This document shows positions 2,430 through 7,317 of a DNA stretch of 10,036 nt, one piece after another. The DNA comes from a virus. Taxonomy: Duplodnaviria; Heunggongvirae; Uroviricota; Caudoviricetes. Within the stretch, counting starts at the first letter, position 1; every line of letters begins with the position of its first letter. The notes under the pieces are model-generated. The model ran no database searches. It was given only the letters and a program-made list of their open reading frames with translations, and was not told where the DNA came from. Made by a program: the position numbers and the translations under genes. Location of the stretch: the IMG/VR virus record IMGVR_UViG_2609459830_000016, one strand, 5' to 3'.

Positions 2430-2856
2430 AAGCTGTGTGACGAAGTAACCACTCTTAACAGCATAACCAATTTTTTACGTACGTAAACCACTAAATGATA
2501 TTTGCGAGAATGCTACCGAGTATTGAAAACACCACTACAAATACATAAGCAAATCTCAACAAATAACCAACAAATAATTTCCAGCGTTATTTTTAGCCGA
2601 TTTAAATTGAACCTTCAAATTATAGAGCACTTATAAATAACAGCCATTAATATAAATTGGCTAATAGATTTATTTTTATTCAGCCAAGAGCCATGAATAG
2701 GATTCGATAGAAAAAGTTCAGATAAAAATAGAGATCTACTTCACAAATCAAATGAGAAACCAAAACTTACATCTTGAAATAATCACATTGATTAGATGAA
2801 TATTTATCGCGCAGTGACATCATTTTTTAATAATAGTTCAAAAAAAAGGGCTCACG

Positions 2857-3939
2857 ATGAAAAAATTAACAGTGGCAATTTCTGCTGTAGCTGCATCAGT
2901 ACTGATGGCGATGTCTGCTCAGGCAGCTGAAATTTATAATAAAGACAGTAACAAGCTGGATCTGTACGGGAAAGTTAATGCTAAGCACTACTTCTCCTCT
3001 AATGATGCAGATGATGGTGATACTACTTATGCCCGTCTTGGCTTCAAAGGTGAAACCCAAATCAACGATCAACTGACTGGTTTCGGTCAGTGGGAATATG
3101 AATTCAAAGGCAACCGCGCTGAATCTCAAGGTTCCTCCAAAGATAAAACCCGTCTTGCCTTCGCTGGCCTGAAATTCGGTGACTACGGCTCCATCGATTA
3201 TGGCCGTAACTACGGTGTAGCATACGATATTGGTGCATGGACCGACGTTCTGCCAGAATTCGGTGGCGATACCTGGACCCAAACAGATGTATTCATGACT
3301 GGTCGCACCACAGGTGTTGCAACTTATCGTAACAATGACTTCTTTGGTCTGGTTGATGGTCTGAACTTTGCTGCTCAGTATCAGGGTAAAAATGACCGTA
3401 CTGACGTAACTCAAGCTAATGGTGATGGTTTCGGTTTCTCCACTACTTATGAGTATGAAGGTTTCGGCGTAGGTGCAACCTATGCTAAATCTGACCGCAC
3501 TAATAATCAGGTTATCTACGGTAACAACAGCCTGAATGCATCTGGTCAAAATGCTGAAGTATGGGCAGCTGGTCTGAAATATGATGCGAACAACATCTAT
3601 CTGGCTACTACCTATTCTGAAACCCAAAACATGACTGTTTTTGGTAAAAACCATATTGCCAACAAAGCACAAAACTTCGAAGTAGTTGCACAATATCAGT
3701 TCGACTTCGGTCTGCGTCCGTCCGTTGCTTATCTGCAATCTAAAGGGAAAGACTTGGGTGCTTGGGGTGATCAGGACCTGGTTGAATATATTGATGTAGG
3801 TGCAACCTATTACTTCAACAAAAATATGTCCACTTTTGTTGACTACAAAATCAACCTGATTGATAAGAGCGATTTCACGAAAGCATCTGGCGTTGCTACC
3901 GATGATATCGTTGCTGTAGGTATGGTTTACCAGTTCTAA
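2857..3939 (+). CDS. nmpC: Phage-encoded general porin (OmpC/OmpF/PhoE family, NmpC/Lc-like)
   Basis: The 360-aa product has a signal peptide [27 protein letters not shown], aromatic/Gly-rich beta-barrel repeats, and a C-terminal VGMVYQF ending in Phe. An AAGGG RBS sits 6 nt upstream. It lies between Q and the lysis genes in opposite orientation, the known locus of nmpC/lc in DLP12/PA-2-type prophages, and appears intact. Confidence 0.9.
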
Positions 3940-4126: not shown

Positions 4127-4510
4127 TTAATTAGAGTTATTAACAACGATATCCATCTCTAACCGGATATCTAATGCCATTAACATCCCTTCAATTATGC
4201 CCTCAGCCTTCTGTAACCTTTTCCCGATATAACCATCAGAGCAGCAATGCTTACCTGCCAGTGACATGAATGTCATACCGACTACATAATAATCTACTAA
4301 TAAATCGTGCAAATCGCTGTTGTTCTTTTTCAGACGGGCCATGCACCCGCAAATGATCATCGCGTCATCGTCACAACATTGCGGGCGAGATTTTACTTTT
4401 GAAGTAATTAATCCCTTAAAACCGGCGGCAATGGACGACCAGGTCACATCTTCATGATTATTAGCCGCCCACGCTCCCCAACGCTCAAGAACCATCTGAA
4501 TATCACGCAT
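4127..4510 (-). CDS. Q: Late-gene antiterminator Q (phage 21/82/QuuD-like family)
   Basis: Start ATG at 4510 has GGAG 7 nt upstream; the track start at 4525 is a TTG. The 127-aa product carries a Cys-rich putative zinc-binding region ([18 protein letters not shown] ... KHCC) and matches the DLP12 Q-like antiterminator from memory. It sits in the Q position downstream of the nin region. Confidence 0.85.
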
Positions 4511-4595
4511 CAACTTACTCCACAAAAATCAGACCAGAACGCCAATTACAAGCAAAAATCAACGAAACAGTATTAGTTGATTGTTATCTCTGACT

Positions 4596-4736
4596 TCATA
4601 CTCCTGCTCCTGTCAGGGTTTTGGCGTAATTCTTCAGTATTCGGTAATCGGTCAAAACAGAACCGGGGAAACGATATAAGCGCAGACGCCCCCAGCGGTG
4701 GCGAAGACGTTCTGCCATATAAAACTCAAACATCAT
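4596..4736 (-). CDS. Small nin-region ORF (46 aa, YlcG-like position between rusA and Q)
   Basis: Hand translation gives [46 protein letters not shown]. Its ATG overlaps the rusA TGA stop (ATGA). It is below the ORF-track size cutoff; synteny matches DLP12 rusA-ylcG-quuD as recalled. Confidence 0.5.
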
Positions 4737-5095
4737 TCATTCCCCATTTCGGTGATGGTCAGTTCCAGCCTCCCACCTTTGGTAACAGGCATCTTCACAA
4801 CGCGGTAATCAACGACCTGAGCATCATCCAGCCAGAAACCTGCTTTAGTGAGTGCGTCAAAAGCGGCTTTTTGCAGATTATCCAGGTCACGGCGACGGCG
4901 ATCCGGCATGTGGCACTCAATGCGGATTTTCACAGGCATAGCCAAGCCGATATCCAGCATTGCGTTTTTAATGATTCGGGCGACGTTATCGCGGTATGCC
5001 TGCCCCTCTGCGCTGACGTGCGTGCGCCCGCGATTATGGCGGTAATAGCGATTATTGCTCGGAGGCCAGGGTAATGTGATGCTGTAGGTATTCAC
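4733..5095 (-). CDS. rusA: RusA Holliday-junction resolvase
   Basis: 120 aa from a GTG at 5095 ([35 protein letters not shown]...), matching E. coli RusA as recalled. The GTG start overlaps the ybcO-like TGA stop (GTGA). The track ORF from 5158 is an upstream extension. Confidence 0.9.
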
Positions 5096-5382
5096 GCCTT
5101 GATTACCCCCTCTTTCAGCCAGATAACCTGCGTTCTCGCCATACCTTCCAGCGCGCATTCTTTTGCGTACTCAGCATCGACAAAATGCGTGCGGCGGTCG
5201 ATTTCGTCGTGACAGGCAGAACAGGCAATGGTGGCAATAAGGTCTGGCGGTTTAATACCGGTGCCACACAGTCCAGCCAGCCGGATATGTGCCAGTACAG
5301 ACGTTTCAGGGTTGCCATTGCATACGCCAGGGATTCTTACCTGGCATTCGCGACCACGCGCTGCTTTTCTCAAATCAGCCAT
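5092..5382 (-). CDS. ybcO: YbcO-like nin-region protein (Cys/His-rich, DUF1364-like putative nuclease)
   Basis: 96 aa from the ATG at 5382, with a strong AAGGAGGA RBS. The product has a Cys-rich motif ([11 protein letters not shown]...CSACHDEID) and sits between ninE and rusA as in DLP12. Confidence 0.8.
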
Positions 5383-6000: not shown

Positions 6001-6035
6001 GCTTCACCTCCGCAGAGGTCAAACGCTGGATAAAG

Positions 6036-6128
6036 AAAATCGCAGGTGCATTTCTGCATCTGTGACGGGAGAAGATAGTTTAGATTGTATGTGCGCATAA
6101 ACGTCCCCGTTTAGCGCAGAAGTCACCG
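6036..6128. repeat. Direct repeat copy A (~93 bp, about 95% identical to 8357-8450)
   Basis: By eye the alignment to copy B shows about 5 mismatches in 93 bp. This copy sits immediately upstream of ybcN. It contains an imperfect stem-loop (gcgcataaacg-tccc-cgtttagcgc) that is identical in copy B. Confidence 0.8.
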
Positions 6129-6151
6129 GAGGAGTTCAAACTCCGGTGACT
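6121..6151. other. Perfect 11-bp stem / 9-nt loop hairpin at the inner boundary of repeat copy A
   Basis: agtcaccggag-gagttcaaa-ctccggtgact. The left arm is the last part of the repeat and the right arm is unique. No U-tract follows on either strand, so it is not a canonical intrinsic terminator. Confidence 0.5.
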
Positions 6152-6221
6152 TAATTATGACAAGTTGATTATTGAAAATCAAAAGTCATTTAAACAATAA
6201 TGATACCCAGCAAGAGATTTC

Positions 6222-6623
6222 TTATTTTAACTCATAGATCAGACAGTCAACGATTTCTAAACCATTTACCATAGAATTAGAAACGCGAACTTTACCATCG
6301 TTGACTCTAGCAAATCCTTTTAACATTTTATAAACAAAAGCTGAATCCCCCTTAGCCTCAATTGCTTCTAATGGTATCGGCTTATACTTTTTTGATATGC
6401 TATTTCTATTTATCTCACTGATTTTTCTATATATTTCTGCCGGCCCACGTTCTGAGAAGTCACTGATAACTAAAATATATCTCCAAGATAGATCTGGGTA
6501 ATAAAACCACATTGCAGCATCAATAGTTAAATTCTGTAACTTGAGTTTTTTTAACAAAAATTGACCTGAGAATTCCATATCTTTTGTCAACTCTCTGCCG
6601 ATTACCAGTGTGCTTTTACCCAT
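6222..6623 (-). CDS. Hypothetical protein (133 aa), downstream partner of the HEPN-like gene; low-GC accessory gene of unknown family
   Basis: ATG at 6623 with GGAG 7 nt upstream, lying inside the 3' end of the upstream gene (22-nt overlap). The DNA is AT-rich. No recognisable catalytic motif was found, including no canonical GS...DxD nucleotidyltransferase signature. Confidence 0.6.
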   Translation of the reverse strand: MGKSTLVIGRELTKDMEFSGQFLLKKLKLQNLTIDAAMWFYYPDLSWRYILVISDFSERGPAEIYRKISEINRNSISKKYKPIPLEAIEAKGDSAFVYKMLKGFARVNDGKVRVSNSMVNGLEIVDCLIYELK

Positions 6624-7018
6624 TTCAAAACTCCAGAATTTTGGTCACCTACAGCATCAAACAATTGTTCGGCCATAGCTTTACTTATGTTATTGTCGTA
6701 TCTAAATTGCTCGCTCCAGTCTTTAACGACCGACCAGTTAATCTCCAACGAAACATCATTTTTTGCGTCAGCAATCAAAATTTGATGTAAGTTGGCAATT
6801 TTGAGAAGTTGCGACAAATCATGAGTATATGAATCATTTACGACTTTTTTGTTTGGAAACTCATGTTGTAAAAATGACTTGGCAATACAGGCCTTCAATG
6901 CACATTCAACTGCATACCCACAAAGATAATATGCACCATGAAAAAAGCCATGATCAAGCAAGCATTTGGCCTCATTAAGCCTAGTGTCAGATAATGCTTC
7001 AAGGTCGTTTTTATTCAT
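6602..7018 (-). CDS. HEPN-like domain protein (138 aa), low-GC accessory gene
   Basis: The sequence pattern (LLDHGFFHGAYYLCGYAVECALKACIAKSF ... NDSYTHDLSQLLKIANL) resembles the HEPN helical-bundle signature as recalled. The canonical Rx4-6H RNase motif is not obviously present. A perfect TATAAT (minus strand, 7052-7057) lies upstream as a possible own promoter. Confidence 0.65.
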   Translation of the reverse strand: MNKNDLEALSDTRLNEAKCLLDHGFFHGAYYLCGYAVECALKACIAKSFLQHEFPNKKVVNDSYTHDLSQLLKIANLHQILIADAKNDVSLEINWSVVKDWSEQFRYDNNISKAMAEQLFDAVGDQNSGVLKWVKAHW

Positions 7019-7317
7019 ACAATTATAACTTGAATTATCCTAATTTTTATGATTATACCCTTATCAGGTATGATGTAGGAACTGAAAACAATATTGGATA
7101 TCATTTTCGGTATTTCTCTGCAAATTCCAGCCCACAGGATCTCGGTGTACAATCTGTCGCTGATCGCGCAAATTTAGGGTCAATCACTTCATTTTTTGCA
7201 TCAAACCCTCACTAACATCGAACGATTATAGTACAAGTAGTGTTCTTGACTTCTCATTAAACCGTCAGCATTCAATTAATTACAAAATACTAGCGGCATT
7301 TCTCTCCCGCAACTTTA

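What the first reader, a model, noticed from the sequence alone, without database searches (positions are those of the whole stretch)
6160..7317. Low-GC overlapping two-gene operon with a HEPN-like protein: candidate undescribed defence or toxin-antitoxin module
Two minus-strand genes (6602-7018, 138 aa; 6222-6623, 133 aa) overlap by 22 nt, and the second has a GGAG RBS inside the first, which suggests translational coupling. Hand counts of sample stretches give roughly 30-37% G+C against about 50-55% in the flanking nin and Q genes, so the pair looks horizontally acquired. The first protein shows a HEPN-like helical signature (AVECALKACIA ... SYTHDLSQLL) without an obvious Rx4-6H motif. The partner matches no family I recognise and lacks the GS...DxD signature of the nucleotidyltransferases that usually pair with HEPN; the gene order is also the reverse of the usual NTase-then-HEPN arrangement. 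The pair sits at a moron hot spot between replication and nin genes, has a perfect TATAAT of its own, and is bracketed by direct repeats. HEPN two-gene modules are commonly toxin-antitoxin or abortive-infection systems, so this is a plausible new prophage-encoded anti-phage or addiction module.
Basis: partly seen in the sequence, partly recalled or inferred. Interest (0 to 1): 0.8.

Follow-up and report, generated by a model that had tools for sequence, protein, structure and literature searches.

The report
Conserved HEPN gene pair in prophage
A foreign-looking two-gene cassette in an E. coli prophage encodes a predicted RNA-cutting (HEPN) protein and an unannotated partner; the same pair, in the same overlapping layout, occurs in hundreds of bacterial and archaeal species, so it is a good but untested candidate for a new toxin-antitoxin or anti-phage module.

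Summary
Two minus-strand genes (7018-6602, 138 aa; 6623-6222, 133 aa) overlap by 22 nt. A GGAG sits 7 nt before the second start. The cassette is 35% G+C against about 52% in its flanks.

Gene 1 is a true HEPN: it passes the Pfam PF05168 threshold and its model resembles solved classical HEPNs. It lacks Rx4-6H but has invariant E38, H66 and R106-Y107, matching the published "alternative histidine" HEPN-T variant.

Gene 2 matches nothing in Pfam, NCBIfam, PADLOC or PDB sequences. Yet its family has at least 799 clusters. It lies directly downstream of the HEPN gene in 134 of 134 loci from many phyla, including archaea. The overlap is exactly 22 nt in 101 of 116 distinct loci. Its fold only faintly resembles minimal nucleotidyltransferases, it lacks their catalytic motifs, and a profile comparison is negative.

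The pair is patchily distributed and is AT-richer than its flanks in 72 of 74 genomes. It has no conserved third gene. In sister prophages the same slot holds different cargo, next to a validated defence gene.

Best reading: a mobile HEPN effector with a cognate restraining partner. This would be a new variant of HEPN two-gene systems. Toxicity and anti-phage activity are untested.

The parts
6602..7018 (-). HEPN gene, 138 aa (RefSeq WP_001038620.1). Single-domain HEPN-T type. E38, K42, H66, R106 and Y107 are invariant; there is no Rx4-6H motif.
   Evidence: ORF. Pfam PF05168 27.8 bits, above the cut-off of 22. AF2 model pLDDT 94. Best structural matches are HEPN proteins 1wol, 1ufb, 1o3u and 2hsb. 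Conservation. RefSeq annotation.
6222..6623 (-). Partner gene, 133 aa (RefSeq WP_000520500.1). Unannotated alpha/beta family, always found directly downstream of this HEPN subfamily.
   Evidence: ORF. No Pfam, NCBIfam, PADLOC or PDB-sequence hit. 799 representative clusters. AF2 model pLDDT 89. Adjacent to the HEPN gene in 134 of 134 loci.
6602..6623 (-). 22-nt overlap between the HEPN 3' end and the partner 5' end (translational coupling).
   Evidence: The overlap is exactly 22 nt in 101 of 116 distinct loci.
6631..6634 (-). GGAG Shine-Dalgarno sequence for the partner, 7 nt before its ATG. It is formed by the codons of invariant Gly129-Val130 of the HEPN protein.
   Evidence: An SD-like tetramer lies within 15 nt of the partner start in 71 of 114 loci.
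7019..7090 (-). Conserved promoter-like leader of the cassette. It includes GGGTATAAT (the -10 hexamer at 7057-7052), 34 nt upstream of the HEPN ATG.
   Evidence: The block is conserved upstream of the pair in other prophage-like contigs with close (71-85% identical) HEPN relatives whose further-upstream sequence is unrelated. TATAAT positions. No good -35 was found.
7091..7317 (-). AT-rich spacer between the stop of the antirepressor-like gene and the conserved cassette leader. Homology to sister prophages fades about 60-85 nt after that stop, which marks the upstream junction of the cargo.
6183..6221 (-). Short AT-rich 3' tail of the cassette. The downstream junction with the conserved nin-region leader is at about 6183-6186.
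   Evidence: Flank homology in about 2,800 E. coli genomes ends at query position 484-487, which is window 6183-6186. Downstream comparison.
6021..6182 (-). Flank, not part of the module. This is the nin-region leader, copy 1 of a 162-nt direct repeat. It carries a putative -35/-10 (6182-6154) and a perfect 12-bp hairpin (6120-6152), which the phage 82 record annotates as a 'possible regulator-binding site'.
8343..8504 (-). Flank: copy 2 of the 162-nt repeat (81% identical). Together with copy 1 it brackets the isrK/C4-antirepressor module plus the HEPN pair.
7318..7926 (-). Upstream neighbour: antirepressor-like gene (Bro-N plus P22AR C-terminal domain, 203 aa in RefSeq).

Best explanation
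The pair is a self-contained, horizontally mobile two-gene module.

Gene 1 encodes a small single-domain HEPN protein of the HEPN-T 'alternative histidine' type. I predict it is the effector. It would be an RNase whose active site is built from E38 (helix 2), H66 (the insert between helices 2 and 3) and R106-Y107, not from Rx4-6H.

Gene 2 is translationally coupled to gene 1 through a deeply conserved 22-nt overlap, with its Shine-Dalgarno sequence embedded in invariant HEPN codons. The two proteins should therefore be made together in a fixed ratio. Its product is an obligate, faster-evolving alpha/beta protein without catalytic motifs. It most likely binds the HEPN protein and holds it inactive, either as a protein antitoxin or as a sensor-inhibitor.

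Loss or displacement of the partner would free the HEPN protein to cut RNA and stop growth. Triggers could be phage infection, shut-off of host gene expression, or loss of the element.

In this window the module is cargo in the accessory slot of an argU/DLP12-type lambdoid prophage of non-O157 STEC. It lies between the isrK/C4-antirepressor module and the nin leader and has its own conserved -10 element. There it would act as a superinfection-exclusion (abortive infection) module, a prophage-retention module, or both.

Shown: gene structure, HEPN membership and fold, conserved residues, obligate pairing and overlap, relative rates of change, patchy distribution, low G+C, and cargo-slot polymorphism.

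Inferred: RNase activity, physical interaction, toxicity and neutralisation, the trigger, and any anti-phage effect.
For: HEPN identity:
- Pfam PF05168 above its cut-off.
- Confident model whose best matches are solved HEPN-T proteins.
- E38, K42, H66 and R106-Y107 are invariant across 54-116 homologues from many phyla.
- This fits the alternative active site described for AF0298-like HEPN-T and AbiV (PMC3710099).

Obligate pair:
- The partner lies immediately downstream on the same strand in 134 of 134 loci. These comprise 42 viral contigs, 80 of 328 species-representative genomes (including Methanosarcinales, ANME-2 and Aenigmatarchaeota), and others.
- The overlap is exactly 22 nt in 101 of 116 distinct loci.
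- No third gene is conserved.

Effector and regulator asymmetry:
- The HEPN protein is more conserved than the partner in 98% of 5,565 locus pairs (mean identity 49% against 32%).
- Their divergences are correlated (Spearman 0.44).

Mobility:
- The pair was found in 328 of about 100,000 species genomes.
- Its G+C is below that of its flanks in 72 of 74 genomes, by 8 points on average.
- Immediate neighbours are heterogeneous: 182 Pfam families among 150 neighbours.
- It occurs on a 13.9-kb Acinetobacter plasmid beside two BrnT/BrnA modules, in an Acinetobacter prophage next to AbiH and umuDC, and in a PIN/HicB/Fic-rich region.
- Occasional frameshifted copies exist.

Hot spot:
- Sister E. coli prophages carry a different 169-aa gene in the same slot.
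- One of them has PD-Lambda-1 on the other side of the antirepressor gene.
- Gifsy-1 HepS, a validated HEPN abortive-infection protein, lies in the equivalent replication-antirepressor region (PMC13043305).

Own promoter element: a conserved block travels with the cassette.
Against: - There are no functional data. Toxicity, interaction and RNase activity are all inferred.
- The HEPN protein lacks the canonical Rx4-6H motif. Some HEPN domains without it are non-catalytic (PMC3710099).
- The partner has no recognisable DNA-binding domain, unlike most type II antitoxins.
- The toxin-first gene order is the minority arrangement.
- In many genomes the pair lies between housekeeping genes in the same orientation: purM-pair-purH in Chloroflexi, and ddl-pair-PASTA in two large chromosomal contigs of unnamed organisms.
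- Only about 2% of immediate neighbours are PADLOC Septu hits and about 2% are PIN proteins. Defence-island association is therefore not demonstrated.
- The pair is rare in isolated phages (1 of 50,697 records) and plasmids (1 of 72,556).
Confidence: 0.55

Rival explanations
1. The pair is a highly degenerate HEPN-MNT module. On this view the partner descends from a minimal nucleotidyltransferase that lost its catalytic residues. It now neutralises the HEPN protein by binding alone (type II-like) and not by AMPylation (type VII), and the gene order has been inverted. This is a statement about ancestry and is compatible with the best explanation's mechanism.
For: - Foldseek lists the MNT antitoxin 7ae9 among its weak hits.
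- The HEPN protein belongs to the MNT-associated HEPN-T clade.
Against: - Equally good matches go to unrelated small alpha/beta sandwiches such as RimP, RbfA, BolA and the ANL C-terminal subdomain.
- Foldseek finds nothing significant: best E 0.12, and TM 0.35-0.38 to MNT.
- No GS or DxD motif is present. The conserved residues are W39, W47, G60-P61, Y65, R113, N120-G121, D126 and Y130.
- Profile-profile comparison of the partner family with a 122-sequence MNT family gives probability 0.3%, the same as the negative controls.
- No NTase Pfam hit appears in any of 67 members.
- MNT is almost always 5' of HEPN, whereas here the partner is always 3'.
Confidence: 0.2
2. The pair is a non-toxic accessory heterodimer. 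On this view the HEPN domain is a non-catalytic RNA- or nucleotide-binding module (as proposed for MtlR and some MNT-fused HEPNs). The pair would have a regulatory or stress-related role and would be neither a toxin-antitoxin nor a defence module.
For: - There is no Rx4-6H motif.
- Some HEPN domains are non-catalytic.
- Many loci lie between housekeeping genes in the same orientation with short gaps.
- HEPN conservation is unusually high across phyla, about 50% identity between E. coli and archaea.
Against: - Polar residues are invariant at the positions of the described alternative HEPN active site: E38, H66 and R106.
- The pair is present in only about 0.3% of species genomes, scattered over more than 15 phyla and archaea.
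- Its G+C is lower than its flanks in 72 of 74 loci.
- It is found in prophage accessory slots and on a small plasmid among toxin-antitoxin modules.
- Frameshifted copies exist.
Confidence: 0.15
3. The roles are reversed. The upstream HEPN protein would be the antitoxin or regulator, as in the usual antitoxin-first type II layout, and the downstream 133-aa protein would be the toxin or effector.
For: - The upstream position is the commonest one for antitoxins.
- The partner has a strictly conserved polar set (R113, N120, D126, Y130) that could form an active or binding site.
Against: - The HEPN protein is the more conserved partner in 98% of comparisons, which is the usual pattern for the effector.
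- HEPN domains are effectors in all characterised two-gene systems: HepT/MntA, RnlAB and AbiV.
- The partner shows no similarity to any toxin family in Pfam or PADLOC.
Confidence: 0.08

Closest known systems
HEPN-MNT (HepT/MntA) type VII toxin-antitoxin systems (Shewanella SO_3166/3165, Aphanizomenon, Legionella)
   Same: - A small HEPN protein paired with a protein of about 100-130 aa in a two-gene operon.
- Patchy, mobile distribution in bacteria and archaea.
- The HEPN protein here belongs to the MNT-associated HEPN-T clade (PF05168).
- The partner's best (weak) structural matches are MNTs.
   Different: - Gene order is inverted.
- The partner lacks the GS...DxD motif and shows no profile similarity to MNT.
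- The HEPN protein lacks Rx4HxY.
- Neutralisation by AMPylation is therefore not expected.
AF0298-like HEPN-T proteins and AbiV (HEPN with an alternative histidine; Anantharaman et al. 2013; AbiV RNase, bioRxiv 10.1101/2024.05.05.592566)
   Same: - The histidine of Rx4-6H is absent while the arginine is kept.
- A second invariant histidine lies in the insert between helices 2 and 3 (H66 here).
- An acidic residue lies in helix 2 (E38).
- AbiV is an anti-phage RNase.
   Different: - AbiV is about 200 aa and, according to the preprint, is restrained by an RNA antitoxin (abiV2). Here the partner is a conserved protein.
- AF0298-type proteins normally pair with an upstream MNT.
RnlA-RnlB and LsoA-LsoB (E. 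coli HEPN toxin with a downstream protein antitoxin; anti-phage)
   Same: - The order is toxin first, antitoxin second (my recollection).
- The toxin is a HEPN RNase and the antitoxin is a small non-enzymatic protein.
- These systems are carried on a prophage or plasmid of E. coli and are triggered by phage infection.
- The rnlAB operon is described as an anti-phage toxin-antitoxin system with a HEPN toxin in PMC8266594. The other details are from my own knowledge.
   Different: - From my own knowledge, RnlA is a multi-domain protein of about 357 aa with canonical Rx4-6H.
- The window's partner hits no PADLOC model; whether that library holds RnlAB models was not checked.
- This family is far more widespread phylogenetically.
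HepS (Gifsy-1) and Tha (S. aureus prophages): prophage-encoded HEPN abortive-infection proteins
   Same: - A HEPN protein encoded as cargo of a lambdoid or temperate prophage.
- HepS lies in the replication-antirepressor accessory region, and the pair here lies just after the antirepressor gene.
   Different: - HepS is a solo HEPN protein with canonical R100-H105 and no partner. [quoted passage not shown]
- The protein here has an obligate partner and a non-canonical motif.
- Neither protein appears among the fold-search hits.
PADLOC candidate PDC-M28 (untested three-gene cassette found by 'guilt-by-embedding')
   Same: All 54 HEPN homologues tested match the PDC-M28A model, which is also 138 positions long. 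The window protein scores 1.8e-7; the best member scores 7.5e-12.
   Different: - The matches are weak (about 30 bits), which indicates a sister family.
- PDC-M28 is a three-family cassette.
- None of 67 partner-family members hits any PDC-M28 component.

Membership tests
HEPN superfamily, HEPN-T clade (Pfam PF05168) | Sequence match to the family profile above the curated threshold | tested here: met
   27.8 bits against a cut-off of 22, covering residues 12-118. The precomputed PF05168 assignment is present on most homologues.
HEPN superfamily, HEPN-T clade (Pfam PF05168) | All-alpha up-down helical bundle that superposes on solved HEPN domains | tested here: met
   The AF2 model has pLDDT 94 and is all-helical. 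The top Foldseek hits are 1wol, 1ufb, 1o3u, 2q00 and 2hsb, with probability 0.92-1.0 and TM 0.43-0.63. Their E-values are weak (0.08-0.6).
HEPN superfamily (catalytic forms) | Rx4-6H RNase motif | tested here: not met
   R106 is invariant, but no histidine follows within 4-6 residues in the window protein or in the family.
AF0298/AbiV-type 'alternative histidine' HEPN | Arginine of the motif kept, a second invariant histidine N-terminal to it in the helix 2-helix 3 insert, and an acidic residue in helix 2 | tested here: met
   E38, H66 and R106 are invariant in 54 diverse sequences. Their positions relative to the predicted helices match the description in PMC3710099. Spatial proximity in the model was not measured.
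HEPN-MNT type VII toxin-antitoxin (HepT/MntA) | Partner is a minimal nucleotidyltransferase with GSx9-13DxD | tested here: not met
   No such motif is present, and the conserved residues are different. No NTase Pfam hit in 67 members. hhalign against an MNT family gives probability 0.3%. No PDB MNT sequence is hit by the profile.
HEPN-MNT type VII toxin-antitoxin (HepT/MntA) | Partner has the Pol-beta nucleotidyltransferase fold | tested here: inconclusive
HEPN-MNT type VII toxin-antitoxin (HepT/MntA) | MNT gene lies 5' of the HEPN gene | tested here: not met
   The partner is 3' of the HEPN gene in 134 of 134 loci. The rule is stated in PMC3710099.
HEPN-MNT type VII toxin-antitoxin (HepT/MntA) | Neutralisation by (oligo)AMPylation of a tyrosine in Rx4HxY | not testable with these tools
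   The motif is absent (R106-Y107 only). This needs biochemistry.
Type II toxin-antitoxin modules (general) | Two small co-oriented, overlapping or adjacent genes that are strictly co-inherited, patchily distributed and mobile | tested here: met
Type II toxin-antitoxin modules (general) | One product is toxic and the other neutralises it by direct binding | not testable with these tools
   No expression data are available.
Type II toxin-antitoxin modules (general) | Antitoxin carries a DNA-binding domain for autoregulation | tested here: not met
   No HTH, RHH or AbrB domain was detected in either protein. This feature is common but not universal.
Anti-phage defence system (operational definition) | Enrichment next to known defence genes, or location in mobile-element defence hot spots | tested here: inconclusive
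   In this prophage lineage the slot is polymorphic and PD-Lambda-1 lies nearby. An Acinetobacter prophage copy lies near AbiH. Across phyla, however, only 3 of 150 immediate neighbours hit Septu PtuA, and most are housekeeping genes. No background model was run.
PADLOC PDC-M28 | All components of the three-gene cassette are present | tested here: not met
   There is only a weak match to component A. The partner family hits no PDC-M28 model. The cassette composition is given.
HepS/Tha-type solo HEPN abortive-infection proteins | Stand-alone HEPN protein with canonical Rx4-6H and no conserved partner | tested here: not met
   The partner is obligate and the motif is absent. The definition comes from PMC13043305.

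The most novel reading that the evidence does not exclude
The pair is the E. coli representative of an undescribed, widespread HEPN-based immunity or toxin-antitoxin family, present in at least 328 species genomes across bacteria and archaea. In this family a non-canonical (E-H-R) HEPN RNase would be controlled by a partner protein of a new family with no solved relative. The partner would act as the phage-sensing inhibitor, so that prophages use the cassette to exclude competitors by abortive infection.
Probability: 0.35. Interest if true: 0.7.

Novelty: new variant of a known kind. Interest (0 to 1): 0.55.

Why it matters
If it is functional as proposed, this would add a third kind of partner for small HEPN effectors, beside the MNT enzymes and the RnlB/LsoB-type antitoxins. 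It would also give an experimentally tractable E. coli example of the 'alternative histidine' HEPN active site, which has mostly been inferred from sequence.

The partner family has at least 799 clusters at 50% identity. It has no Pfam, NCBIfam or PADLOC model and no solved relative, so a sizeable set of 'hypothetical proteins' would gain a context-based annotation.

The exact 22-nt overlap is conserved from E. coli to methanogen-related archaea. That is an unusually rigid operon architecture and implies strict stoichiometric co-production.

For STEC biology, the pair is a strain-variable prophage cargo found in about 3.4% of complete E. coli genomes, mainly O26, O103 and O157 isolates. It sits in a slot that also holds validated defence genes, so it could influence phage susceptibility and prophage stability.

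Tried and rejected

2. The pair is the PADLOC candidate PDC-M28. Rejected: PDC-M28 is a three-gene cassette, and only a weak match to component A is present.

3. A third conserved component exists. All-against-all clustering of 1,015 neighbouring ORFs found none outside the enterobacterial prophage backbone.

4. The hairpin at 6120-6152 is the cassette's terminator. Rejected: it belongs to the conserved nin leader, is present in phages that lack the pair, and is annotated in phage 82 as a possible regulator-binding site. It has no U-tract.

5. Short direct repeats flank the pair as insertion scars. The 18-20-nt repeats are 75-89% matches at chance level. No tandem repeats are present.

6. An RNA antitoxin or sRNA lies in the 299-nt upstream spacer. 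There are no Rfam hits there. The hits are C4 and isrK, further upstream.

7. Isoelectric-point asymmetry as a toxin/antitoxin clue was uninformative. Family medians are 6.2 and 6.6.

8. Literature searches by accession, by 'PDC-M28', by HEPN plus NetFlax, and by HEPN plus prophage terms found no description of this pair.

9. Not possible:
   - The afdb50 fold library was not installed.
The reverse test (partner found without HEPN) was therefore not made. It was covered only indirectly, because no extra lone partner appeared in 134 loci except tandem duplicates.
Full report
**Where the window comes from**

The window is 100% identical to a lambdoid prophage integrated next to tRNA-Arg (the DLP12 site) in non-O157 STEC strains such as E. 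coli E2865, O26 RM10386 and O103 RM8385. The minus strand of the window is the direction of early-right transcription. Read in that direction, the order is:
- replication gene P
- a 115-aa gene on the opposite strand
- the antirepressor-like gene
- the HEPN gene and its partner
- a 33-aa ORF
- ybcN (ninB-like), ninE, ybcO, rusA, ylcG, quuD (Q)
- an ompC-like porin
- the lysis genes
- iss

The full cassette is present in 186 of 5,426 complete E. coli genomes, almost always at 99% identity or more.

**Check of the observation**

ORFs 7018-6602 (138 aa) and 6623-6222 (133 aa) lie on the minus strand and overlap by 22 nt. GGAG at 6634-6631 lies 7 nt before the second ATG. G+C is 0.352 over 6183-7317, against 0.52 for ybcN and for ninE-rusA.

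The upstream spacer holds three TATAAT hexamers on the coding strand, where 0.32 are expected. None has a good -35, and the generic promoter scan is at chance level. The hexamer at 7057-7052 is nevertheless part of a roughly 75-nt block (…GGGTATAAT…ATAATTCAAG…ATG). That block is conserved upstream of the pair in other prophage-like contigs carrying close (71-85% identical) HEPN relatives, whose sequence further upstream is unrelated. A promoter element therefore appears to travel with the cassette.

The 'bracketing direct repeats' claim is only partly right:
- Short repeats near the pair are chance-level.
- The real repeat is 162 nt long (6021-6182 and 8343-8504, 81% identical).
- Both copies are the leader that precedes the nin genes. 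The phage 82 record X92588 annotates this stretch with a putative -35/-10 and a 'possible regulator-binding site', which is the perfect 12-bp hairpin at 6120-6152.
- The repeat encloses the antirepressor module plus the HEPN pair, not the pair alone.

**Gene 1 is a HEPN protein with the alternative active-site pattern**

- Pfam PF05168 scores above its curated cut-off.
- The AlphaFold model, built from 54 diverse homologues, has pLDDT 94 and is all-helical.
- Its best Foldseek matches in the PDB are classical HEPN proteins: ST0689 1wol, TT1696 1ufb, TM0613 1o3u, 2q00 and AF0298 2hsb. Probabilities are 0.92-1.0 and TM-scores 0.43-0.63, although E-values are weak.
- No solved structure is close in sequence.
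- R13, E38, C39, K42, F54-P55, H66, W101, R106-Y107, G129 and W133 are invariant across homologues from many phyla. No histidine follows R106.

Anantharaman et al. (PMC3710099) describe this pattern for the HEPN-T/AF0298 group and for AbiV. The motif histidine is lost and the arginine is kept. A second conserved histidine from the insert between helices 2 and 3, together with an acidic residue in helix 2, could form an alternative RNase site. The positions of E38 (helix 26-46), H66 (insert) and R106 (after helix 89-98) fit that description. Catalytic activity remains an inference.

**Gene 2 belongs to a large, unannotated family**

The window protein and 67 diverse relatives hit nothing in Pfam or PADLOC. 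The window protein also hits nothing in NCBIfam. PHROGs lists the family only as phrog_5760, 'unknown function'. The word-indexed search found just 32 close relatives. An exhaustive profile search found 799 representative clusters with E-value 0.001 or better, nearly all 125-140 aa long.

Conserved positions are G20, W39, W47, G60-P61, Y65, R113, N120-G121, D126 and Y130, plus R131 in most lineages. There is no GS...DxD motif.

The AlphaFold model has pLDDT 89 and an alpha/beta order of H-E-E-H-E-H-E-E. Its first 13 residues are low-confidence although conserved.

Evidence on whether the partner is a minimal nucleotidyltransferase (MNT):
- Unrelated small alpha/beta domains score almost as well.
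- Foldseek finds nothing significant.
- I built an MNT family from an MNT gene present in one of the fetched loci. Profile-profile comparison with the partner family gave probability 0.3%, the same as the negative controls.

The partner is therefore not demonstrably an MNT. A very degenerate MNT origin remains possible; I rate it at about 0.2.

**The pair is an obligate, rigidly organised unit**

- Distant HEPN homologues in Chloroflexi, Woeseiaceae and Catalinimonas have a homologous downstream gene.
- Scans seeded with the HEPN alignment returned 42 viral contigs and 328 species-representative genomes, of which 80 were fetched. They span Gammaproteobacteria, Desulfobacterota, Acidobacteriota, Chloroflexota, Bacteroidota, Cyanobacteria, Planctomycetota, Nitrospirota, Verrucomicrobiota and archaea (ANME-2, Methanosarcinales, Aenigmatarchaeota).
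- In 134 of 134 loci the partner lies immediately downstream on the same strand. The single apparent exception is a frameshifted HEPN gene whose partner is still present.
- The overlap is exactly 22 nt in 101 of 116 distinct loci.
- The partner's Shine-Dalgarno sequence is formed by the codons of invariant Gly129-Val130.
- The HEPN protein is more conserved than the partner in 98% of locus pairs (49% against 32% mean identity), and their divergences correlate.
- No third gene is conserved.

**Mobility and context**

- The pair is AT-richer than its flanks in 72 of 74 genome loci, by 8 points on average.
- Immediate neighbours are extremely heterogeneous: 182 Pfam families among 150 neighbours, none present more than three times. 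Most are housekeeping genes such as purM/purH, efp and dapA.
- Three neighbours are PIN proteins and three are Septu PtuA ATPases.
- Individual loci are suggestive. An Acinetobacter prophage end carries the pair near AbiH, umuDC and an integrase. A Woeseiaceae region is rich in PIN, HicB and Fic genes. A 13.9-kb Acinetobacter plasmid carries it beside two BrnT/BrnA modules.
- The pair is rare in sequenced phage isolates, with one Klebsiella phage.

In E. coli, homology to the window's nin leader stops at 6183-6186 in thousands of genomes. Upstream, homology to a sister prophage (FDAARGOS_1291) fades 60-85 nt after the antirepressor stop. Between these junctions, O104:H4 2011C-3493 and FDAARGOS_1291 carry a different 169-aa gene with no Pfam or PADLOC match. 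FDAARGOS_1291 also has the validated defence gene PD-Lambda-1 (DUF4041) where the window has its 115-aa gene. The slot is therefore a cargo-exchange hot spot. It is equivalent to the replication-antirepressor region where Gifsy-1 carries the HEPN abortive-infection protein HepS (PMC13043305).

**Interpretation**

The best-supported reading is a mobile two-gene module. The HEPN protein would be an RNase-type effector. The co-translated partner would be its cognate restraining protein, acting as antitoxin or sensor-inhibitor. Lambdoid prophages would carry it as an exclusion or retention cassette (confidence 0.55).

This mechanism resembles RnlAB/LsoAB: toxin first, with a protein antitoxin. It shares its active-site variant with AbiV and AF0298-type HEPNs.

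It is not a member of:
- HEPN-MNT type VII systems: the partner motifs, the gene order and the Rx4HxY motif were all tested and not met.
- PDC-M28: that is a three-gene cassette, and the partner family is absent from it.
- The HepS/Tha solo class.

The main rivals are a dead-MNT ancestry (compatible with the same mechanism), a non-toxic regulatory heterodimer, and reversed roles for the two proteins.

**Novelty**

I found no description of the pair in the searchable literature. The partner family has no model in Pfam or PADLOC. Two-gene HEPN modules are, however, a well-known kind, so I rate this a new variant of a known kind with moderate interest. It is a strong, well-delimited candidate for simple experiments, but every functional step is still inferred.

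Noticed in passing
window 7978-8177 (-): Rfam finds a C4 antisense RNA (7978-8065, 82.5 bits), isrK (8090-8162, 64 bits) and the C4 a1/b1 target element (8125-8177) just upstream of the Bro-N/P22AR antirepressor-like gene. This looks like a P1 immI / Gifsy-1 isrK-type antirepressor control module. It also means the 281-aa ORF 7318-8163 is over-extended; RefSeq aa (7318-7926).
   Followed up: partly
window 6021-6182 and 8343-8504: A 162-nt direct repeat, 81% identical and about 93% in its roughly 100-nt core. Both copies are the nin-region leader, which carries a putative promoter and a 'possible regulator-binding site' in phage 82. Together they bracket the isrK/C4-antirepressor module plus the HEPN pair, which suggests module exchange by recombination at this conserved junction.
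   Followed up: partly
window 8679-9026 (+): A 115-aa gene on the opposite strand, G+C 0.385, matches Pfam PF18315 'Integron cassette protein VCH_CASS14' (5.7e-20) and phrog_5959 (unknown function). It is another low-GC cargo gene between replication gene P and the antirepressor module.
   Followed up: no
L137 (E. coli FDAARGOS_1291) 4161-5351 and 1994-2503; L136 (O104:H4 2011C-3493) 1994-2503: Sister prophages carry PD-Lambda-1 (DUF4041, PADLOC 1.9e-153) in the slot of the 115-aa gene. In the slot of the HEPN pair they carry a 169-aa protein with no Pfam or PADLOC match, which is another uncharacterised cargo candidate.
   Followed up: partly
window 6631-6634 and HEPN codons 129-130; all related loci: The partner's GGAG Shine-Dalgarno sequence is encoded by the invariant Gly129-Val130 codons of the HEPN gene. 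The 22-nt overlap is identical in 101 of 116 distinct loci from bacteria and archaea. Part of the HEPN C-terminal conservation may therefore reflect constraint on the overlapping translation signals.
   Followed up: partly
L053 and L054 (two large chromosomal contigs, organisms not named); L006, L066, L070, L131 (Chloroflexi and SAR202): In some lineages the pair sits in a conserved position between housekeeping genes in the same orientation: ddl-pair-PASTA protein, and purM-pair-purH. This is unusual for a defence module and was not explained here.
   Followed up: no
L130 6423-7294; L061 5858-6544: Tandem duplication of the partner gene. There are two full copies after one HEPN gene in an Acidobacteriaceae MAG, and a partial second copy in a Desulfobacterales MAG.
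   Followed up: no
window 2550-2850 and 2857-3939 (+): An ompC-like porin gene lies between Q and the lysis genes, on the opposite strand. Its upstream region has very low G+C (0.27). An iss/bor lipoprotein gene lies at 772-1065, after the lysis cassette. An Rz1-like lipoprotein ORF (1157-1339) is embedded in Rz. These are known lambdoid cargo genes.
   Followed up: no
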